Positions 1-10,248 of a DNA stretch of 10,248 nt are shown here, one piece after another. A program made the translations under genes and the position numbers. The stretch's first letter is position 1; the number at the start of each line of letters is the position of its first letter. Below the pieces are notes generated by a model, which was not told the origin of the DNA, searched no databases, and saw only the letters and a program-made list of their open reading frames with translations. Origin of the DNA: a virus (taxonomy: Duplodnaviria > Heunggongvirae > Uroviricota > Caudoviricetes); the IMG/VR virus record IMGVR_UViG_2663762839_000007, positions 1 through 10,248 of that record. One strand, 5' to 3'.

Positions 1-1
1 C

Positions 2-280
2 CAGCATATCGTCTGGTTCCCGCCAGTGAGCATTAATCTCCTGCTTACTATTTTGCTCGCGGTCGTTGCCGGTACAGTGGGATGCTTGCTGCGTCTTCCT
101 TCCAGCACGATGCTCATCCCGATGCTGGCGGGCGCAGTGCTCCAGTCTGGTCAGCTCATCACCATCGAACTACCGGAATGGCTGCTGGCGATGGCGTATA
201 TGGCAATTGGCTGGCGGATTGGTCTTGGTTTCGATACTATGATCATGTATAGTTGGTTGTCGTTTTGCCATGTGGTTTAG
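2..280 (+). CDS. AbrB-family (PF05145-like) membrane protein, partial: reading frame is open from the window start, so the 5' end lies outside the window; the last ~15 codons are AT-rich and probably not native
   Basis: Hydrophobic translation with the AbrB-repeat pattern LP...ML.GA.L...LPEWLL.A...IGW.IG.GF; host-like GC and codon use up to about position 235, then an abrupt AT-rich stretch before the stop at 278-280. Family assignment is from recalled motif pattern, not a search. Confidence 0.5.
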   Translation, partial: QHIVWFPPVSINLLLTILLAVVAGTVGCLLRLPSSTMLIPMLAGAVLQSGQLITIELPEWLLAMAYMAIGWRIGLGFDTMIMYSWLSFCHVV

Positions 281-291
281 AAGGTGATTGA

Positions 292-1446
292 TTGTGTGTC
301 GATCCTTACCTATCATTGGTTTTATTCCAAAATCGAATAATTGGTGCTAAAGAAGTGAACAAAATTTCAGCGGTGAGCTTATTTACTGGGGCAGGAGGGA
401 TGGATGTCGGTTTCTCTAATGCCGGGTTCCGAACAGTTTGGGCCAATGATATAGATAAGGATGCATGTGATACATTTAAGCTTAATCATGAATCACCTGT
501 TTTTTGTGGTGATATTGATGAGATGCTAAGTGAATTGTCTGGGCTGAAAAATATAGGTTGTGTTTTTGGTGGGCCTCCATGCCAAGGATTTTCTGTGGCA
601 GGGAAAATGGACGCTCATGATCCACGTAGTAAGCTGGTTATGTCATTCATGCGGGCGGTGGATATAATTCAACCAGAATGCTTTGTTATGGAGAATGTTA
701 AGGCTTTAGCACAGTTGTCCAAATTTGAACCAGTTAGGTGTGAACTGTTTAAGATGGCTGAAAAGTCAGGCTATCGTTCAGCCTTGCTGGTGCTGAATTC
801 TAAAGATTTTGGCGTTCCTCAGAATAGGGAACGTATGTTTTTTATAGGGTTTCGTTCCGAAAATGATGTGAAACGAGTTGAGGCGGCGATAAAAAAATAC
901 CAATATCTTTCGCCAACAGTTGGTGAGATTATTCGGCCTTTAGGGCGAGCGGGTAATCCAAATAATTCAAGAGTCTGTAATGCAAGGATTACAAATGCTG
1001 CTAAGCCAGTATTACGGAAGTCACCTTACGCGGGAATGATGTTTAACGGGCAGGGAAGACCAATTAACCCGAATGGGTATGCTTCAACTATAGCTGCTTC
1101 TATGGGGGGGAATAGGACACCAATTATTGATGAAGAACACCTTTATGATGGCTCAACAAGTTATGTTGAGACTTATCATAATCATCTAATGAATGGTGGT
1201 GAGCCAAAAGATATGCACGATGTACCTAGTCGTTTACGTCGACTAACGATAGATGAGGCTCTTTTGATTCAAACATTCCCGAGTAATTATGTCTTTGTGG
1301 GGAAAAATTCGTCAATTTGGCGTCAGATAGGGAATGCTGTGCCTTGTAAATTGGCGCAGGCTGTTGCTGCAGGGGTTTTGGATGTCCTTACTGGTAAAAC
1401 TATTAATGTTCAAAAGAGTCAAACAGAGTTGAGTTTGAATTCGTAA
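292..1446 (+). CDS. DNA (cytosine-5)-methyltransferase, no adjacent restriction endonuclease (orphan); start uncertain (TTG 292 after AAGGTGA, or GTG 355 giving a typical short N-terminus before motif I)
   Basis: All canonical C5-MTase motifs are visible in order: motif I LFTGAGGMDVGF, motif IV GGPPCQGFS (catalytic Cys), motif VI ENVKAL, motif VIII QNRERMFFIGF, a variable target-recognition region, then motif X GNAVP. The gene is clearly more AT-rich than the flanking phage and host DNA. Confidence 0.9.
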   Translation: MCVDPYLSLVLFQNRIIGAKEVNKISAVSLFTGAGGMDVGFSNAGFRTVWANDIDKDACDTFKLNHESPVFCGDIDEMLSELSGLKNIGCVFGGPPCQGFSVAGKMDAHDPRSKLVMSFMRAVDIIQPECFVMENVKALAQLSKFEPVRCELFKMAEKSGYRSALLVLNSKDFGVPQNRERMFFIGFRSENDVKRVEAAIKKYQYLSPTVGEIIRPLGRAGNPNNSRVCNARITNAAKPVLRKSPYAGMMFNGQGRPINPNGYASTIAASMGGNRTPIIDEEHLYDGSTSYVETYHNHLMNGGEPKDMHDVPSRLRRLTIDEALLIQTFPSNYVFVGKNSSIWRQIGNAVPCKLAQAVAAGVLDVLTGKTINVQKSQTELSLNS

Positions 1447-1602
1447 AACGGATCACATTTTCAAACCGATGGATGCAGAATTTAACATTGCTGCATGAGT
1501 TTGCATCTTGAAATCATAAGCTGTACTGCTTAGCTTGACCAGAATTGATGTGGGTAAGAAGTGGTTATGCACCCGCATTAAAACCGCCCCATTAAGCGGG
1601 CG

Positions 1603-1621
1603 GGCGAGGCGGGGAAAGCAC
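1603..1621. other. P2-type cos site (19-nt cohesive-end sequence GGCGAGGCGGGGAAAGCAC)
   Basis: Exact 19-mer that I recall as the P2 cohesive end, located just beyond the 3' end of the portal gene Q, as in P2. Recognition is from memory and needs alignment to confirm. Confidence 0.55.
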
Positions 1622-1790: not shown

Positions 1791-2825
1791 TCAGCCGTTG
1801 TCAGTGTCCAGTGAGTAGTTTTTAAAGCGGATGACCTCCTGACCGAGCCAGCCGTTTATCTCGCGGATCCTGTCCTGTAACGGGATAAGCTCATTGCGGA
1901 CAAAGACCTTTGCCACTTTCTCAATATCGCCCAGTGACCCGACGTTCTCCGGCTTGCCGCCCATCAACTGAAAGGGGATGCGGTGCGCGTCCAGCAGGTC
2001 AGCGGCGCTGGCTTTTTTGATATTAAAAAAATCGTCCTTCGTTGCCACTTCACTGAGCGGGATAATTTTGATGCCGTCGGCTTTCCCCTGTGGGGCATAG
2101 AGAAACAGATTTTTAAAGTTGTTGCGGCCTTTCGACTTCACCATGTTTTCGCGGAGCATTTCGATATCGTTGCGATCCTGCACGGCATCGGTGACGTACA
2201 TGATGTATCCGGCATGAGCGCCGTTTTCGTAATACTTGCGGCGGAACAGCGTGGCCGACTCATTCAGCCAGGCAGAGTTAAGGGCGCTGAGATATTCCGG
2301 CAGGCCGTACAGCTCCTGATTAATATCCGGCTCCAGCAGGTGAAACACGGAGCCGGGTGCGAAGGCTGTCGGCTCGTTGAAGGACGGCACCCACCAGTAA
2401 ACATCCTCTTCCACACCACGGCGGGTATATTTTGCCGGTGAGGTTTCCAGTCTGATGACCTTACCGGTGGTGCTGTAACGCTTTTCCAGAAATGCATTAC
2501 CGAATACCAGAAAATCCAGCACAAAGCGGCTGAAATCCTGTTGCGAAAGCCACGGATGCGGGATAAATGTCGAGGCCAGAATATTACGTTTGACGTAAAT
2601 CGGTGAGCTGTGATGCACGGCAGCACGCAGGCTTTTTGCCAGACCGGTAAAGCTGACCGGTGGCTCATACCATCTGCCGTTACTGATGCACTCGACGTAA
2701 TCCAGAATGTCACGGCGGTCGAGTACCGGCACCGGCTCACCAAAGGTGAATGCCTCCATTTTCGGGGCGCTGGCGGTCATTTTTTTTGCCGCAGGTTGCG
2801 GTGTTTTCCCTTTTTTCTTGCTCAT
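1791..2825 (-). CDS. Q: Portal vertex protein (P2 gpQ-like)
   Basis: 344-aa ORF matching the P2 gpQ sequence and length as recalled; its ATG overlaps the P stop (ATGA), indicating translational coupling. Confidence 0.92.
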   Translation of the reverse strand: MSKKKGKTPQPAAKKMTASAPKMEAFTFGEPVPVLDRRDILDYVECISNGRWYEPPVSFTGLAKSLRAAVHHSSPIYVKRNILASTFIPHPWLSQQDFSRFVLDFLVFGNAFLEKRYSTTGKVIRLETSPAKYTRRGVEEDVYWWVPSFNEPTAFAPGSVFHLLEPDINQELYGLPEYLSALNSAWLNESATLFRRKYYENGAHAGYIMYVTDAVQDRNDIEMLRENMVKSKGRNNFKNLFLYAPQGKADGIKIIPLSEVATKDDFFNIKKASAADLLDAHRIPFQLMGGKPENVGSLGDIEKVAKVFVRNELIPLQDRIREINGWLGQEVIRFKNYSLDTDNG

Positions 2826-4770: not shown

Positions 4771-5625
4771 ATGGCAAAAAAAGTCTCAAAATTCTTTCGT
4801 ATCGGCGTTGAGGGTGACACCTGTGACGGGCGTGTCATCAGTGCGCAGGATATTCAGGAAATGGCCGAAACCTTTGACCCGCGTGTCTACGGTTGCCGCA
4901 TTAACCTGGAACATCTGCGCGGCATCCTGCCTGACGGTATTTTTAAGCGTTATGGCGATGTGGCCGAACTGAAGGCCGAAAAGATTGACGATGATTCGGC
5001 GCTGAAAGGCAAATGGGCGCTGTTTGCGAAAATCACCCCGACCGATGACCTTATCGCGATGAACAAGGCCGCGCAGAAGGTCTACACCTCAATGGAAATT
5101 CAGCCGAACTTTGCCAACACCGGCAAATGTTATCTGGTGGGGCTGGCCGTTACCGATGACCCGGCAAGCCTCGGTACGGAATACCTGGAATTCTGCCGCA
5201 CGGTAAAACACAACCCCCTGAACCGCTTCAAATTAAGCCCTGAAAACCTGATTTCAGTGGCAACGCCTGTTGAGCTGGAATTTGAAGACCTGCCTGAAAC
5301 CGTGTTCACCGCCCTGACCGAAAAGGTGAAATCCATTTTTGGCCGCAAACAGGCCAGCGATGACGCCCGTCTGAATGACGTGCATGAAGCGGTGACCGCT
5401 GTTGCTGAACATGTGCAGGAAAAACTGAGCGCCACTGAGCAGCGCCTCGCTGAGATGGAAACTGCCTTTTCCGCTCTTAAGCAGGAGGTGACTGACAGGG
5501 CGGATGAAACCAGCCAGGCATTCACCCGCCTGAAAAACAGCCTCGACCACACCGAAAGTCTGACCCAGCAGCGCCGCAGCAAGGCCACCGGCGGTGGCGG
5601 TGACGCGCTGATGACGAACTGCTGA
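4771..5625 (+). CDS. O: Capsid scaffolding protein (P2 gpO-like)
   Basis: The ORF track starts at 4705, but the ATG at 4771 gives MAKKVSKFFRIGVEGDTCDG and a 284-aa product, matching P2 gpO as recalled. Confidence 0.9.
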   Translation: MAKKVSKFFRIGVEGDTCDGRVISAQDIQEMAETFDPRVYGCRINLEHLRGILPDGIFKRYGDVAELKAEKIDDDSALKGKWALFAKITPTDDLIAMNKAAQKVYTSMEIQPNFANTGKCYLVGLAVTDDPASLGTEYLEFCRTVKHNPLNRFKLSPENLISVATPVELEFEDLPETVFTALTEKVKSIFGRKQASDDARLNDVHEAVTAVAEHVQEKLSATEQRLAEMETAFSALKQEVTDRADETSQAFTRLKNSLDHTESLTQQRRSKATGGGGDALMTNC

Positions 5626-5683
5626 CCGGCGTCAGTCAGTCCGGGAAAACCTTCACGATTAACCCTTAATTTCAGGAAAAACT

Positions 5684-6757
5684 ATGCGCCAGGAAACCCG
5701 CTTTAAATTTAATGCCTACCTGTCCCGTGTTGCCGAACTGAACGGCATCGACGCCGGTGATGTGTCGAAAAAATTCACCGTTGAACCGTCGGTCACCCAG
5801 ACCCTGATGAACACCATGCAGGAGTCCTCTGACTTTCTGACCCGCATCAACATTGTGCCGGTCAGCGAAATGAAAGGGGAAAAAATTGGCATCGGTGTCA
5901 CCGGCTCCATCGCCAGCACCACCGACACCGCCGGTGGCACCGAGCGTCAGCCGAAGGACTTCTCGAAGCTGGCGTCAAACAAGTACGAATGCGACCAGAT
6001 TAACTTCGATTTTTATATCCGCTACAAAACGCTGGACCTGTGGGCGCGTTATCAGGATTTCCAGCTCCGTGTCCGTAACGCCATTATCAAACGCCAGTCC
6101 CTTGATTTAATCATGGCCGGTTTTAACGGCGTGAGGCGTGCCGAAACCTCTGACCGCAGCAGCAATCCGATGCTGCAGGATGTGGCGGTCGGCTGGCTGC
6201 AGAAATACCGCAATGAAGCCCCGGCGCGCGTGATGAGCAAGGTCACTGACGAGGAAGGTCACACGACCTCTGAGGTTATCCGCGTGGGTAAGGGCGGTGA
6301 TTATGCCAGCCTTGACGCACTGGTGATGGATGCGACCAACAACCTGATTGAGCCGTGGTATCAGGAAGACCCTGACCTTGTGGTGATTGTGGGACGTCAG
6401 CTACTGGCGGACAAGTATTTTCCCATCGTCAACAAGGAGCAGGACAACAGCGAAATGCTGGCCGCTGACGTCATCATCAGCCAGAAACGCATCGGTAACC
6501 TGCCGGCGGTACGCGTCCCGTACTTCCCGGCGGATGCGATGCTCATCACGAAGCTGGAAAACCTGTCCATCTACTACATGGATGACAGCCATCGCCGCGT
6601 GATTGAGGAAAACCCGAAACTCGACCGCGTGGAGAACTACGAGTCAATGAACATTGATTACGTGGTGGAAGACTACGCCGCCGGTTGTCTGGTGGAAAAA
6701 ATTAAGGTCGGTGATTTCTCCACACCGGCTAAGGCGACCGCAGAGCCGGGAGCGTAA
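5684..6757 (+). CDS. N: Major capsid protein (P2 gpN-like)
   Basis: 357-aa ORF with an AGGAAA ribosome-binding site; sequence and length match P2 gpN as recalled. Confidence 0.92.
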   Translation: MRQETRFKFNAYLSRVAELNGIDAGDVSKKFTVEPSVTQTLMNTMQESSDFLTRINIVPVSEMKGEKIGIGVTGSIASTTDTAGGTERQPKDFSKLASNKYECDQINFDFYIRYKTLDLWARYQDFQLRVRNAIIKRQSLDLIMAGFNGVRRAETSDRSSNPMLQDVAVGWLQKYRNEAPARVMSKVTDEEGHTTSEVIRVGKGGDYASLDALVMDATNNLIEPWYQEDPDLVVIVGRQLLADKYFPIVNKEQDNSEMLAADVIISQKRIGNLPAVRVPYFPADAMLITKLENLSIYYMDDSHRRVIEENPKLDRVENYESMNIDYVVEDYAAGCLVEKIKVGDFSTPAKATAEPGA

Positions 6758-6760
6758 CCG

Positions 6761-7504
6761 ATGACGAGTCCCGCACAGCGCCACATGATGCGGGTCTCGG
6801 CAGCGATGACCGCGCAGCGGGAAGCCGCCCCGCTGCGACATGCAACTGTCTATGAGCAGATGCTGGTTAAGCTCGCCGCAGACCAGCGCACACTGAAAGC
6901 GATTTATTCAAAAGAGCTGAAGGCTGCGAAAAAACGCGAACTGCTGCCGTTCTGGTTGCCGTGGGTGAACGGTGTGCTTGAGCAGGGCAAAGGTGCACAG
7001 GATGACATTCTGATGACGGTCATGCTGTGGCGTCTGGATACCGGCGATATTGCCGGTGCGCTGGAGATTGCCCGTTATGCCCTGAAGTACGGTCTGACCA
7101 TGCCGGGTAAACACCGTCGCACCCCGCCGTACATGTTCACCGAGGAGGTGGCGCTCGCGGCCATGCGCGCCCACGCTGCCGGTGAGTCTGTGGATCCCCG
7201 CCTGCTGACGGACACCCTCGAACTGACCGCCACGGCTGACATGCCTGATGAAGTGCGCGCAAAGCTGCACAAAATCACCGGTCTGTTTCTGCGTGACGCT
7301 GGTGATGCCGCAGGGGCGCTGGCGCACCTGCAACGTGCGACACAGCTCGACTGTCAGGCAGGCGTCAAAAAAGAGATTGAACGACTGGAGCGGGAGCTGA
7401 AACCGAAGCCGGAGCCGCAGCCCAAAGCGGCCACCCGCGCCCCGCGTAAGACCCGGAGCGTGACACCGGCAAAACGTGGACGCCCGAAAAAGAAAGCCAG
7501 TTAA
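6761..7504 (+). CDS. M: Terminase small (endonuclease) subunit (P2 gpM-like)
   Basis: 247-aa ORF starting 3 nt after the N stop, with a basic C-terminal tail; matches P2 gpM as recalled. Confidence 0.9.
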   Translation: MTSPAQRHMMRVSAAMTAQREAAPLRHATVYEQMLVKLAADQRTLKAIYSKELKAAKKRELLPFWLPWVNGVLEQGKGAQDDILMTVMLWRLDTGDIAGALEIARYALKYGLTMPGKHRRTPPYMFTEEVALAAMRAHAAGESVDPRLLTDTLELTATADMPDEVRAKLHKITGLFLRDAGDAAGALAHLQRATQLDCQAGVKKEIERLERELKPKPEPQPKAATRAPRKTRSVTPAKRGRPKKKAS

Positions 7505-7603
7505 CAACCGAATGCGCCCCGCGCCAGGGCGGCACGCCGGTCAGTGAGGGTGAATCACCTGACACTGCACCGGCGTCCACCGCCCGACTTTTCAGAGGTA
7601 GTC

Positions 7604-8113
7604 ATGATGACGCTGATTATTCCGCGAAAGGAGGCTCCCGTGTCCGGTGAGGGTACGGTGGTCATCCCGCAACCGGCAGGCGACGAGCCGGTGATTAAAA
7701 ACACGTTCTTTTTTCCCGATATCGACCCGAAGCGCGTCCGGGAACGTATGCGCCTTGAGCAGACCGTCGCCCCCGCCCGTCTGCGTGAGGCCATCAAGTC
7801 AGGCATGGCTGAAACGAATGCGGAGCTGTACGAGTACCGCGAACAGAAAATTGCCGCCGGTTTTACGCGTCTGGCTGACGTCCCGGCGGACGACATCGAC
7901 GGTGAAAGCATCAAAGTTTTTTACTACGAGCGCGCCGTGTGTGCGATGGCGACCGCGTCGCTTTATGAGCGTTATCGCGGCGTGGATGCCAGTGCGAAAG
8001 GCGACAAGAAGGCCGACAGCATTGACAGCACCATTGATGAGCTGTGGCGGGATATGCGCTGGGCAGTGGCGCGCATCCAGGACAAGCCACGCTGCATCGT
8101 GAGTCAAATCTGA
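7604..8113 (+). CDS. L: Head completion/stabilisation protein (P2 gpL-like)
   Basis: The ATG at 7604 is preceded by GAGG and gives MMTLIIPRKEAP and 169 aa, the P2 gpL length as recalled; the longer ORF from 7544 has no ribosome-binding site. Confidence 0.88.
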   Translation: MMTLIIPRKEAPVSGEGTVVIPQPAGDEPVIKNTFFFPDIDPKRVRERMRLEQTVAPARLREAIKSGMAETNAELYEYREQKIAAGFTRLADVPADDIDGESIKVFYYERAVCAMATASLYERYRGVDASAKGDKKADSIDSTIDELWRDMRWAVARIQDKPRCIVSQI

Positions 8114-8316
8114 TGAAGACCTTTGCGCTACAGGGCGACACGCTCGACGCCATTTGTGTCCGGTATTACGGGCGCACTGAGGGCGTGGTCGAAGCCGTGC
8201 TCGCCGCAAATCCGGGACTGGCTGAACTGGGCGCGGTGCTGCCGCACGGCACCGCCGTCGAACTGCCCGACGTTCAGACCGCGCCCGTGGCTGAAACTGT
8301 CAATCTGTGGGAGTAA
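8113..8316 (+). CDS. X: Tail protein X (P2 gpX-like)
   Basis: 67-aa product MKTFALQGDTLDAIC...; its ATG overlaps the L stop (ATGA), as in P2. Confidence 0.85.
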   Translation: MKTFALQGDTLDAICVRYYGRTEGVVEAVLAANPGLAELGAVLPHGTAVELPDVQTAPVAETVNLWE

Positions 8317-8319
8317 CGC

Positions 8320-8547
8320 ATGACAGCAGAAGAAAAAAGCGTCCTGTCGCTTTTCATGATTGGGGTGCTGATTGTTGTCGGCAAGGTGCTTGCCGGTGGT
8401 GAACCCATCACCCCGCGTCTGTTTATCGGGCGCATGTTGCTCGGTGGTTTTGTCTCGATGGTTGCCGGTGTTGTTCTGGTGCAGTTTCCTGACCTGTCAT
8501 TGCCTGCGGTGTGCGGCATCGGCTCCATGCTGGGTATCGCCGGTTAA
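8320..8547 (+). CDS. Y: Holin (P2 gpY-like), probably C-terminally truncated
   Basis: 75-aa product with three hydrophobic segments; the ORF stops inside the third segment with no charged C-terminal tail. I recall P2 gpY as about 93 aa. The stop is followed directly by the ribosome-binding site and start of U. Confidence 0.6.
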   Translation: MTAEEKSVLSLFMIGVLIVVGKVLAGGEPITPRLFIGRMLLGGFVSMVAGVVLVQFPDLSLPAVCGIGSMLGIAG

Positions 8548-8561
8548 GGAGGTGACGAAAA

Positions 8562-9011
8562 ATGATGCTCGCGTTAGGTATGTTTGTTTTTATGCGCCAG
8601 ACGCTGCCACACCAGACCATGCAGCGTGAATCAGATTATCGCTGGCCGTCAAATTCCCGTATCGGCAAACGGGATGCCTTTCAGTTTCTCGGTGTGGGTG
8701 AGGAAAACATCACGCTTGCCGGTGTGCTTTATCCCGAACTGACCGGCGGAAAGCTGACGATGACCACGCTCAGGCTGATGGCAGAGGAGGGGCGGGCGTG
8801 GCCGTTGCTGGATGGCACCGGCATGATTTACGGCATGTATGTCATCAGCAGGGTGAGTGAAACAGGGAGTATTTTCTTTGCAGACGGCACACCCCGGAAA
8901 ATTGATTTTACGCTGTCACTCACCCGCGTTGATGAATCACTGGCCGCGCTTTATGGCGATATCGGTATGCCAGCATGCCGCACATGCGCGTACAAGCCGC
9001 TATATCACTGA
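8562..9011 (+). CDS. U: Tail protein U (P2 gpU-like) with a non-native 3' end that reads out of frame into ogr
   Basis: AAGGAGGTGA ribosome-binding site before the ATG at 8562. The first ~135 aa look like gpU; the last 14 codons (MPACRTCAYKPLYH) are the ogr zinc-finger region read in another frame, and gene D is absent. Confidence 0.7.
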   Translation: MMLALGMFVFMRQTLPHQTMQRESDYRWPSNSRIGKRDAFQFLGVGEENITLAGVLYPELTGGKLTMTTLRLMAEEGRAWPLLDGTGMIYGMYVISRVSETGSIFFADGTPRKIDFTLSLTRVDESLAALYGDIGMPACRTCAYKPLYH

Positions 9012-9168
9012 CACGACAAAAGAGCGTTATCACCAGTGTCAGAACGTGAATTGCAGCGCCACGTTCATCACTTATGAGTCGGTACAGCGATACATCGTGA
9101 AGCCGGGAGAAGTCCACGCCGTAAGGCCGCACCCATTGCCGTCAGGGCAGCAAATTATGTGGATGTAA
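8953..9168 (+). CDS. ogr: Ogr/Delta-family zinc-finger late-gene activator, N-terminally altered (possible pseudogene)
   Basis: Translation from ATG 8953 gives MAISVCQHAAHARTSRYITDTTKERYHQCQNVNCSATF..., matching P2 Ogr from Cys7 onward as recalled. The N-terminal MFHCPLC is replaced by MAISVC, so the first cysteine of the C4 finger is missing, and no ribosome-binding site precedes the ATG. Confidence 0.75.
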   Translation: MAISVCQHAAHARTSRYITDTTKERYHQCQNVNCSATFITYESVQRYIVKPGEVHAVRPHPLPSGQQIMWM

Positions 9169-9180
9169 TTACAAACAGAA

Positions 9181-9208
9181 AGCCCCCTCAGTCGAGGGGG
9201 CTTTTTTG
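9181..9208 (+). terminator. Rho-independent terminator downstream of ogr
   Basis: AGCCCCCTC-AGTC-GAGGGGGCT perfect 9-bp stem followed by TTTTTT, 13 nt after the ogr stop. Confidence 0.85.
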
Positions 9209-9270
9209 TCGATGTGGTCAATGTGTGGACGTGACCAGAAATAAATCCTTTTATTTCATGTGATTAGATA

Positions 9271-9297
9271 TCAAAAAATGTCACCAATAACTGACAT
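9271..9297 (-). pseudogene. pflA: pflA 5' remnant: start codon plus four codons (MSVIG) fused to unrelated sequence, stop after 8 codons
   Basis: Minus strand reads GGAGAAACACCGCA-ATG TCA GTT ATT GGT, a ribosome-binding site followed by the MSVIG start I recall for E. coli PflA, lying 191 bp downstream of the pflB stop. Homology ends after codon 5 (GAC ATT TTT TGA). Confidence 0.6.
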
Positions 9298-9419
9298 TGC
9301 GGTGTTTCTCCAGATGTGGCCCATCTGAGGCCGTGTTGGTGCGCAGCTCGAAGGCTACGTCGAGTCTGTTTTGGCAGTCACCTTAAAGTATAGATAGCTG
9401 ACAAAAAAGGCTCTCGTGC

Positions 9420-9445
9420 TAAAAAAGGCCCCACTTTCGTGGAGC
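9420..9445 (-). terminator. Rho-independent terminator downstream of pflB
   Basis: On the minus strand, GGCTCCAC-GAAA-GTGGGGCC hairpin followed by TTTTTT, about 45 nt after the pflB stop. Confidence 0.7.
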
Positions 9446-9488
9446 CTTTATTGTACGCTTTTTACTGTACGATTTCAGTCAAATCTAA

Positions 9489-10248
9489 TTACATAGATTG
9501 AGTGAAGGTACGAGTAATAACGTCCTGCTGCTGTTCTTTAGTCAGCGAGTTGAAACGTACTGCGTAGCCAGATACACGGATGGTCAGCTGCGGATATTTT
9601 TCCGGGTTTTCCATCGCGTCAAGCAGCATTTCACGGTTCATCACGTTAACGTTCAGGTGCTGACCACCTTCGATGGATGCTTCGTGGTGGAAGTAACCAT
9701 CCATCAGACCTGCCAGGTTGGTCTTACGAACTTCGTCGTCTTTACCCAGTGCGTTCGGAACGATAGAGAAGGTGTAGGAGATACCATCTTTAGCGTAAGC
9801 AAACGGCAGTTTAGCAACGGAAGTCAGAGACGCTACAGCACCTTTCTGGTCACGACCGTGCATCGGGTTAGCACCCGGTCCGAACGGCGCGCCAGCACGA
9901 CGACCGTCTGGGGTGTTACCAGTTTTCTTACCATACACAACGTTAGACGTGATGGTCAGAACAGACTGAGTCGGGATAGCGTCACGGTAGGTGTGCAGTT
10001 TCTGAATTTTCTTCATGAAACGTTCTACCAGGTCAACAGCCAGGTCATCTACACGCGGATCGTTGTTACCAAACTGCGGGTATTCGCCTTCGATTTCGAA
10101 GTCGATAGCCAGACCGTCTTCGTCACGAATCGGTTTAACTTTCGCATATTTGATTGCAGACAGGGAGTCAGCAGCAACGGACAGACCAGCGATACCACAC
10201 GCCATGGTGCGGATAACGTCACGGTCGTGCAGCGCCATCAGAGAGGCT
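9489..10248 (-). CDS. pflB: Pyruvate formate-lyase (glycyl radical enzyme), C-terminal ~250 codons; the 5' end lies beyond the window
   Basis: Translation ends ...[34 protein letters not shown], containing the glycyl-radical motif RVSGYAV and the PflB C-terminus as recalled; codon usage is strongly E. coli-like and the frame stays open to the window end. Confidence 0.88.

What the first reader, a model, noticed from the sequence alone, without database searches (positions are those of the whole stretch)
292..1602. Orphan low-GC cytosine-5 methyltransferase in the cos-proximal cargo position of the P2-like element
A complete C5-MTase with all catalytic motifs lies between the truncated host gene and cos, where P2 carries old/tin and where P2-like phages are known to carry variable defence or anti-defence cargo. 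Its composition is much more AT-rich than the rest of the element, which argues for separate horizontal acquisition. No restriction endonuclease, Vsr or controller gene is in the window. It may be the surviving half of a restriction-modification system cut at the left junction, a self-protective anti-restriction methylase, or an epigenetic regulator. Its variable region did not let me assign a target specificity.
Basis: partly seen in the sequence, partly recalled or inferred. Interest (0 to 1): 0.6.

Follow-up and report, generated by a model that had tools for sequence, protein, structure and literature searches.

The report
Leftover methylase of a prophage restriction system
The gene is a real, intact DNA cytosine methylase, but it is the surviving half of an already catalogued restriction-modification cassette that P2-like prophages of E. 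coli carry next to their packaging site, so it is ordinary rather than new.

Summary
An intact C5 cytosine methyltransferase (likely CDS 355-1446; 292 is only the longest-ORF start) lies between a truncated host abrB gene and the P2 cos site (1603-1621). It is AT-rich: 41.8% GC against 56.5% for the phage genes.

It did not arrive as a lone gene. The protein is 100% identical to the M gene of a three-gene cassette: SacI-family restriction endonuclease, small HTH controller (C), and methylase. All 20 of 5426 complete E. coli genomes that carry M also carry R and C. So do all 20 further contexts I fetched, always between P2 gpA and the portal gene.

The window keeps the first 26 codons of the C gene (316-239, minus strand) and a conserved palindromic operator (322-340). 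The break to abrB falls at 236/237.

Rousset et al. 2022 already list this cassette, with the same endonuclease accession, in the P2 hotspot. UniProt holds the identical methylase from a P2-like phage (Q83VT0).

The likely target is GAGCTC; this is inferred, not shown.

One caveat: the window is one whole 10.2-kb draft contig, so whether R survives elsewhere in that genome is unknown. The flank orientation fits an inversion, not a deletion.

Low interest; already known.

The parts
1..236 (+). Fragment of host gene abrB (nt 510-745 of the 1047-nt K-12 gene). The reading frame runs on into element DNA and stops at 278-280.
   Evidence: 234/236 identical to K-12 b0715. PF05145 AbrB, E 2.1e-17. 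Present in all 5426 complete E. coli genomes.
236..237 (.). Break point joining abrB to the cargo module. There is no shared base at the join.
   Evidence: Three-way comparison of window, K-12 abrB and L001. abrB would continue AACAAATC; the element upstream reads ...CCTGTAT.
239..316 (-). Stub of the HTH controller (C) gene: start codon at 316-314 and the first 26 of 104 codons. The HTH domain (aa 37-81) is lost.
   Evidence: Maps onto L001 8766-9080, annotated as a helix-turn-helix protein. PF01381 covers aa 37-81. The fused 48-aa ORF 170-316 is not on record as a called gene.
288..316 (+). Sigma-70-like promoter candidate for the methylase (TTGATT-17-TATCAT). Its -10 hexamer overlaps the C start codon on the other strand.
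   Evidence: Consensus scan, 9 of 12 matches. A prediction only.
322..340 (.). Palindromic operator (candidate C-box) TTATTC-CAAAATC-GAATAA, between the C start and the M start.
   Evidence: Same core and dyad (ATATGC-CAAAATC-GCATAT) at -29 to -56 of the M start in 14 other loci from gammaproteobacteria and cyanobacteria. It occurs only where an RE_SacI gene is adjacent. The arm changes are symmetric.
355..1446 (+). C5 cytosine DNA methyltransferase, 363 aa. The longest ORF starts at TTG 292. The catalytic Cys76 codon is at 580-582.
   Evidence: PF00145, E 1.3e-66. TIGR00675, 200.6 bits against a cut-off of 100.65. 100% identical to WP_244495171.1 of strain 13TMH22. Closest solved structure is M.HaeIII, E 6e-39.
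1447..1560 (.). AT-rich 3' tail of the cargo module (43.6% GC over 1447-1602).
   Evidence: Contiguous with M at 98.5-99.5% identity in the 20 carrier genomes. Absent from sequenced P2-like phages, whose homology begins at about 1560-1567. No Rfam match.
1603..1621 (+). P2 cos, the 19-nt cohesive end GGCGAGGCGGGGAAAGCAC.
   Evidence: Aligns to NC_001895 positions 1-19, annotated 'cosL; left cohesive end'.
1791..2825 (-). Portal gene Q, the conserved right border of the P2 hotspot.
   Evidence: PF04860. Annotated as portal protein in all related loci.

Best explanation
The gene is the modification half of a type II restriction-modification cassette that P2-like prophages carry as defence cargo between the replication gene A and cos/portal gene Q.

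The intact cassette has three parts. A SacI-family endonuclease (351 aa) and a small HTH controller (104 aa) are read leftwards. The m5C methylase is read rightwards. A palindromic operator lies in the 38-bp gap between the two.

In this contig a break 80 nt into the controller gene joins the cassette to host abrB. The controller's DNA-binding domain and the endonuclease are therefore gone from this locus. The methylase, its upstream 118 bp and the operator are untouched.

A break that removes R or C but spares M is the kind a cell can survive, so this is the usual route to a solitary methylase.

Inferred, not shown:
- The methylase is still made, from its own promoter-like site at 288-316 and possibly by read-through from abrB, which lies on the same strand.
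- It is no longer under controller regulation.
- It methylates the inner cytosine of GAGCTC. This now has no defence role, but it would keep the chromosome immune to SacI-type enzymes.
For: - The methylase is complete and has all catalytic motifs.
- It is 100% identical to the M protein of an intact cassette.
- DNA 237-1800 is 98.5-99.5% identical in 20 of 5426 complete E. coli genomes. The same 20 genomes, and no others, hold the R+C DNA at 99.5% identity or more.
- All 20 contexts fetched by exact protein look-up show gpA, RE_SacI, HTH, M, portal, at either the yegR or the pflA/pflB attachment site.
- The endonuclease matches PF09566 with E 1.9e-76. The controller matches PF01381.
- Homology to the intact cassette starts exactly at 237, inside the C gene.
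- R, C and M are all AT-rich (35.5, 37.1 and 41.8% GC) between gpA and portal genes of 53% GC.
- The pairing is old. M homologues of 59-85% identity in Pseudoalteromonas, Xanthomonas, a cyanobacterium and another P2-like phage all sit divergently beside an RE_SacI gene.
- Of 80 species-level loci, 27 have a clear RE_SacI neighbour and 38 have a divergent branch of the same family (hhalign probability 97.7%).
- The variable region of the methylase is nearly invariant across this family.
- The operator is conserved and co-occurs with RE_SacI.
- The cassette, with the same endonuclease accession WP_000866882, is listed for the P2 hotspot in PMC9122126, Table S5A.
Against: - The junction rests on one draft contig (GCA_000946855.1, CDRI01000239.1) that ends only 236 bp beyond it.
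- No other assembly or complete genome shows this junction.
- The independent Logan contig covers only 5178-9600.
- Nothing here shows expression or activity of the methylase.
- GAGCTC specificity is inferred from the name and family of the partner endonuclease and has not been measured. The site-avoidance tests are weak. GAGCTC is absent from carrier and non-carrier P2-like prophages alike, and it ranks only second among palindromic hexamers in the family's loci.
Confidence: 0.85

Rival explanations
1. The abrB end of the contig is an assembly or library chimera. The real genome carries the intact R-C-M cassette, and the methylase is not orphaned at all.
For: - The window is a whole 10,248-bp draft contig that stops 236 bp past the junction.
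- The junction is seen in no other assembly.
- The two host flanks lie in opposite relative orientation to K-12.
- The 92-aa and 84-aa abrB-fusion products are not found elsewhere.
Against: - There is no shared sequence at the join. De Bruijn graph mis-joins need a shared k-mer.
- An assembler would normally follow the well-covered path into C and R rather than a rare chimeric tip.
- The same contig has two other internal deletions that an independent assembly reproduces at 100% identity. So this prophage really is decaying.
Confidence: 0.12
2. The junction is one end of a roughly 204-kb chromosomal inversion between abrB and the C gene. The endonuclease gene then survives about 200 kb away behind a headless C gene and is silent or weakly expressed. 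The methylase still protects the chromosome in trans. This is a variant of the best explanation, not an alternative origin.
For: - In K-12, abrB and pflB are both on the minus strand, 203.5 kb apart. In the window they are on opposite strands.
- A simple deletion is therefore excluded by geometry. It would also remove essential genes (my own knowledge of the K-12 map).
- The window matches the predicted structure of one inversion end.
Against: - The four ORFs predicted for a precise reciprocal junction are absent from the 15-billion-protein collection. Short ORFs are often not called, so this is weak.
- I could not search the rest of the assembly.
- An inversion within one replichore of this size is usually costly.
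Confidence: 0.3
3. The methylase was acquired, or is now kept, as a stand-alone phage or host function. It would be either self-protection of phage DNA against host restriction or an epigenetic regulator.
For: - Solitary phage methylases and regulatory orphan methylases are well known (general knowledge).
- The gene is intact, and a promoter-like site is retained.
Against: - Every relative in E. coli is part of R-C-M.
- 74 of 80 distant loci have a candidate endonuclease neighbour.
- The C stub and operator show that this copy came from a full cassette.
- 100% protein identity to cassette copies means the event is recent, with no sign of separate evolution.
- The prophage is defective, lacking lysis and tail genes, so there is no phage DNA left to protect.
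Confidence: 0.04

Closest known systems
HTH + RE_SacI + DNA_methylase cassette of the P2 gpA-gpQ hotspot (Rousset et al. 2022, PMC9122126, Table S5A; RefSeq WP_000866882 / WP_244495171; UniProt Q83VT0 from a P2-like phage)
   Same: The methylase is identical (100%). The position next to cos and Q is the same. The C gene start, the operator and the 3' spacer are the same.
   Different: Here the cassette is cut 80 nt into the C gene. R and most of C are missing from the locus, and abrB takes the place of gpA.
Controller-protein-regulated type II systems with divergent M and C-R units (for example PvuII, EcoRV, Esp1396I; named from my own knowledge)
   Same: A small HTH gene lies upstream of and overlapping R. 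M is read divergently. A dyad operator lies between them.
   Different: The operator is a single 19-bp dyad with a fixed asymmetric centre, CAAAATC. It is not the GACT/AGTC-type C-box. Regulation has not been tested for this family.
P2 old and tin (cargo of reference phage P2 at the same position)
   Same: Same slot between gene A and cos. Same general role as anti-phage cargo.
   Different: Unrelated proteins and mechanism. old and tin are exclusion genes, not a restriction-modification pair.
M.HaeIII and M.HhaI (solved C5 methyltransferases)
   Same: Shared catalytic core motifs I-VIII and IX-X (E 6e-39 and 5e-20).
   Different: The target-recognition region (about aa 176-293) does not align. 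A different specificity is expected.
E. coli Dcm (CCWGG) with Vsr
   Same: Both are chromosomal m5C methylases of E. coli without an active partner endonuclease.
   Different: This is not a Dcm orthologue: NF007772 scores 39 bits against a cut-off of 710. There is no vsr gene. It is prophage-borne and recently orphaned.

Membership tests
C5 cytosine DNA methyltransferase (PF00145 / TIGR00675) | Full-length profile match above the curated threshold | tested here: met
   PF00145: 225.7 bits against a cut-off of 22, model 2-320 of 324. TIGR00675: 200.6 bits against 100.65.
C5 cytosine DNA methyltransferase (PF00145 / TIGR00675) | Catalytic motifs: I FxGxG, IV PCQ with the nucleophilic Cys, VI ENV, VIII QxRxR, X GNAVP | tested here: met
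   FTGAGG 10-15, PPCQ with C76, ENV 113-115, QNRER 156-160, GNAVP 326-330. All are invariant in the 12-sequence alignment and align to M.HaeIII.
C5 cytosine DNA methyltransferase (PF00145 / TIGR00675) | Transfers a methyl group to C5 of cytosine in DNA | not testable with these tools
   Needs bisulfite, EM-seq or nanopore sequencing, or a protection assay.
Type II restriction-modification system with a controller protein | A cognate endonuclease gene adjacent to the methylase | tested here: not met
   Absent from the window. Present in all 40 related E. coli contexts. The window holds a remnant, not a system.
Type II restriction-modification system with a controller protein | An intact HTH controller gene | tested here: not met
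   Only codons 1-26 of 104 remain. The HTH domain at aa 37-81 is lost.
Type II restriction-modification system with a controller protein | A dyad operator between the C-R unit and M | tested here: met
   The dyad at 322-340 is conserved in 16 RE_SacI loci counting the window, with symmetric arm changes. Binding has not been tested.
Cargo of the P2-like gpA-gpQ (old/tin) hotspot | Lies between replication gene A and cos/portal gene Q of a P2-like element | tested here: inconclusive
   The cos and Q side is met. The gpA side is missing here because of the break. It is met in all intact relatives and in the published table.
SacI-type (GAGCTC) modification methylase | The partner endonuclease belongs to the SacI family | tested here: met
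   The partner in identical-M loci matches PF09566 with E 1.9e-76. 65 of 80 distant loci have an RE_SacI-superfamily neighbour.
SacI-type (GAGCTC) modification methylase | Methylates GAGCTC and blocks SacI cleavage | not testable with these tools
   Only indirect data. GAGCTC has O/E 0.42 and ranks 2 of 64 in family loci, and it is absent from the window. An unrelated m5C enzyme with GAGCTC specificity is reported in PMC11954522.
Solitary (orphan) methyltransferase | No cognate endonuclease anywhere in the genome | not testable with these tools
   Only this contig of GCA_000946855.1 could be read.
Dcm (CCWGG) orthologue | Match to the Dcm subfamily model above its cut-off | tested here: not met
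   NF007772: 39.2 bits against a cut-off of 710.

The most novel reading that the evidence does not exclude
The break is one end of a roughly 204-kb inversion that physically separated a still-intact SacI-family endonuclease gene from its methylase and its controller promoter. This would leave a split, trans-protected restriction system in a natural isolate. Alternatively, the orphaned methylase is kept because GAGCTC methylation pre-immunises the strain against the P2-like phages and strains that carry the full cassette.
Probability: 0.12. Interest if true: 0.3.

Novelty: already known. Interest (0 to 1): 0.12.

Why it matters
It matters little beyond correct annotation.

- It is a clean, datable example of how a solitary methylase arises from a mobile restriction-modification cassette. 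The break leaves a controller-gene stub and the operator as a scar, inside a prophage that is losing genes piece by piece.
- In practice the gene should be annotated as the M subunit of a SacI-family system (predicted target GAGCTC), not as a phage anti-restriction or regulatory methylase.
- DNA from such strains is predicted to resist SacI-type cleavage.
- The conserved operator and the consistent pairing with RE_SacI enzymes across phyla may help people who annotate these systems.

Tried and rejected
- Megablast of 282-1602 against 50,697 phage records found nothing. A protein search found only relatives of 54% identity or less. No sequenced free phage in that set carries the gene.
Four ORFs predicted for a precise reciprocal junction are not in the protein collection. 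Truncated AbrB C-terminal products are common in many strains and so are uninformative. The junction-spanning 48-aa ORF and the abrB-fusion ORFs are not on record.
- The organism name of the source assembly was not returned.
- GAGCTC avoidance as a test of specificity does not discriminate. The count is zero in carrier and non-carrier prophages alike, and the site ranks second, not first, among palindromic hexamers.
- I first took the 38-locus neighbour family to be a new endonuclease family, because hmmscan gave no Pfam or NCBIfam hit. I rejected this. Many relatives carry precomputed PF09566 hits, and hhalign gives 97.7% probability to RE_SacI.
- I first took TTG 292 to be specific to the window. 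I rejected this too: the 384-aa form is on 425 contigs.
- Odegrip et al. 2006 (PMC1367236), the likely source of Q83VT0, is not held.
- Rfam found nothing in the window.
- A simple 204-kb deletion is rejected on strand geometry.

Full report
**What is in the window.**
- From left to right, the ORF list and profile searches give a fragment of the host membrane-protein gene abrB (1-236) and a C5 cytosine methyltransferase ORF (292-1446).
- Next come the P2 packaging site and genes Q, P, O, N, M, L and X of a P2-like prophage. These are followed by a shortened holin, a gpU fragment and ogr.
- The window ends with the 3' end of pflB.
- The 19-nt cohesive end at 1603-1621 aligns exactly with positions 1-19 ('cosL') of the phage P2 reference.
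- The window is not an excerpt. It is the whole of one draft contig, CDRI01000239.1 of assembly GCA_000946855.1.

**Checking the observation.**
- The methyltransferase is real and complete. PF00145 matches with E 1.3e-66 over model positions 2-320 of 324. TIGR00675 scores 200.6 bits against a cut-off of 100.65.
- The core motifs FTGAGG, PPCQ (Cys76, nt 580-582), ENV, QNRER and GNAVP are present. They are invariant in an alignment with eleven homologues and align to M.HaeIII and M.HhaI.
- The gene is 41.8% GC, against 56.5% for the phage genes.
- The start needs correcting. TTG 292 is only the longest-ORF start, and one close relative has TTA there. Homologues from other phyla begin at the position of GTG 355, which is also the PGAP start. 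ATG 400, used by the contig's own gene call, would delete motif I.
- The cargo ends at about 1560, where homology to sequenced P2-like phages begins.

**What it is.**
- DNA 237-1800 recurs at 98.5-99.5% identity in 20 of 5426 complete E. coli genomes.
- In strain 13TMH22 the methylase is 100% identical at protein level. It is the right-hand gene of a three-gene block between replication gene A and the portal gene. A 'restriction endonuclease, SacI family' (351 aa) and a helix-turn-helix protein (104 aa) are read leftwards, and the methylase is read rightwards.
- Pfam confirms RE_SacI (E 1.9e-76) and HTH_3.
- The R+C DNA is found in exactly the same 20 genomes, always complete.
- Twenty further contexts, fetched by exact protein look-up from isolates and metagenomes, all show gpA, RE_SacI, HTH, M, portal. 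The prophages sit at the yegR site or the pflA/pflB site. Several are internally deleted yet still keep the block.
- The whole block is AT-rich (R 35.5%, C 37.1%, M 41.8% GC) between flanks of 53% GC. It therefore came in as a unit.

**The scar.**
- Alignment with the intact locus shows that homology starts at window 237, inside the controller gene.
- Its start codon (316-314, minus strand) and 26 codons remain. The HTH domain (aa 37-81) and the endonuclease are gone from this locus.
- To the left the sequence is abrB up to nt 745 of 1047, with no shared base at the join.

**A conserved operator.**
- Between the C start and the M start lies a perfect dyad, TTATTC-CAAAATC-GAATAA (322-340).
- The same centre, with arms ATATGC/GCATAT, lies 29-56 nt upstream of the M start in 14 other loci from gammaproteobacteria and cyanobacteria. 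It appears only where an RE_SacI gene is adjacent and always in the same orientation. The two arm differences are mirrored on both sides.
- This is what a binding site for a dimeric controller looks like. Binding itself is not shown.
- A promoter-like site for M (TTGATT-17-TATCAT, 288-316) survives.
- abrB is on the same strand, so read-through is also possible. Both points are inference.

**How old the pairing is, and the likely target.**
- M homologues of 59-85% identity in Pseudoalteromonas, Xanthomonas, Phormidesmis and a second P2-like lineage all sit divergently beside an RE_SacI gene.
- In 80 loci from one genome per species, 27 have a clear RE_SacI neighbour.
- A further 38 have a neighbour family that hmmscan does not recognise. 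Many of its relatives carry PF09566 hits, and it aligns to RE_SacI with 97.7% probability.
- Nine more have a third, unannotated neighbour family of about 550 aa.
- The target-recognition region of the methylase is almost invariant across the family, so one specificity is likely.
- From the partner family I infer GAGCTC. An unrelated m5C enzyme with that specificity is documented (PMC11954522).
- The avoidance tests are only weakly supportive. GAGCTC is absent from the window, but also from a non-carrier P2-like prophage. It ranks second of 64 palindromic hexamers in the family's loci (O/E 0.42).

**Is it really orphaned?**
- In this contig, yes. In the genome, unknown.
- In K-12, abrB and pflB are both on the minus strand, 203.5 kb apart. 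In the window they are on opposite strands.
- The join therefore cannot be a simple deletion. It fits one end of an inversion, in which case R would persist about 200 kb away behind a headless C gene.
- ORFs predicted for a precise reciprocal junction are not in the protein collection. That is weak negative evidence.
- A contig chimera cannot be excluded, because the contig ends 236 bp past the join and no other assembly shows it.
- Against a chimera: there is no shared k-mer at the join. Also, the two other deletions in the contig (holin to gpU at about 8541-8546, and gpU to ogr at 8966-8967) are reproduced at 100% identity by an independent Logan assembly.

**Comparison with what is known.**
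- Rousset et al. 2022 defined the gpA-gpQ, cos-proximal locus of P2-like phages as a hotspot of anti-phage cargo.
- Their Table S5A lists 'HTH + RE_SacI + DNA_methylase' with the very endonuclease accession found here, WP_000866882.
- The identical methylase is in UniProt as Q83VT0 from a P2-like phage. It probably comes from the Haggård-Ljungquist laboratory's work on the variable tin/old region. That attribution is from my own knowledge, because the paper is not held.
- Loss of R with retention of M is the textbook route to solitary methylases (general knowledge).
- The gene is not a Dcm orthologue.

**Verdict.**
- The feature is already known and of low interest.

Noticed in passing
window 8320-9168: The prophage is a decaying remnant. 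Relative to the P2-like prophage of strain KFu022 at the same pflA/pflB site, about 2.2 kb is missing between the holin gene and gpU (join at 8541-8546). About 1.3 kb is missing between gpU and ogr (join at 8966-8967), giving a 75-aa holin and a 149-aa gpU fusion. An independent Logan assembly (ERR738831_252) matches 5178-9600 at 100%.
   Followed up: yes
window 1-236 versus 9489-10248: The two host flanks, abrB and pflB, are 203.5 kb apart and on the same strand in K-12, but on opposite strands here. This points to an inversion-type rearrangement, or a chimera, rather than a deletion.
   Followed up: partly
window 322-340; L026 4028-4048; L029 3350-3368; also L031, L034-L036, L038, L039, L042-L046, L049, L055: A conserved dyad with a fixed asymmetric centre (ATATGC/TTATTC-CAAAATC-GCATAT/GAATAA) lies just upstream of the methylase start. 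It occurs only in loci with a divergent HTH plus RE_SacI unit, from E. coli prophages to cyanobacteria. It is a candidate controller-protein operator for this family.
   Followed up: partly
whole window; L002 5357-25103; L003, L015, L020: GAGCTC does not occur at all in the 10.2-kb window. It is also absent from 18-20 kb of four P2-like prophages, against 4-5 expected, including one that carries a different cargo (an AAA ATPase). The phages are close relatives, so this is not four independent observations.
   Followed up: partly
L072, L078, L079 (1463-3214, minus strand), L086, L092, L099, L107, L111, L113: Nine methylase homologues from Rhodobacterales, Vibrio, Methylophaga and Coriobacteriia have no RE_SacI neighbour. 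Instead they sit next to a shared protein of about 550 aa with no Pfam or NCBIfam match. It may be an unannotated partner endonuclease.
   Followed up: partly
proteins P0249, P0251, P0252, P0294, P0334: Some relatives of the divergent RE_SacI branch are 446-454-aa proteins that carry HTH_3 and HTH_31 domains as well as RE_SacI. This looks like a controller-endonuclease fusion.
   Followed up: no
L006, L017, L021, L023: Several other P2-like prophages with large internal deletions, including loss of capsid or tail genes, still keep the complete R-C-M block. This fits the idea that the cassette stabilises, or is selected in, the remnant.
   Followed up: no
PMC9122126, Table S5A: Three contigs (NZ_NTIH01000052, NZ_NTIP01000012, NZ_NTIQ01000013) are listed with HTH + RE_SacI but no annotated methylase, and with a different endonuclease accession (WP_134874246). 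This may be an annotation gap or a decayed variant.
   Followed up: no
NZ_CP026641.1 1770518-1772080 (H7): In strain FORC_082 two 'DNA cytosine methyltransferase' features lie under the match. This suggests a split or frameshifted M gene beside an apparently complete R gene.
   Followed up: no
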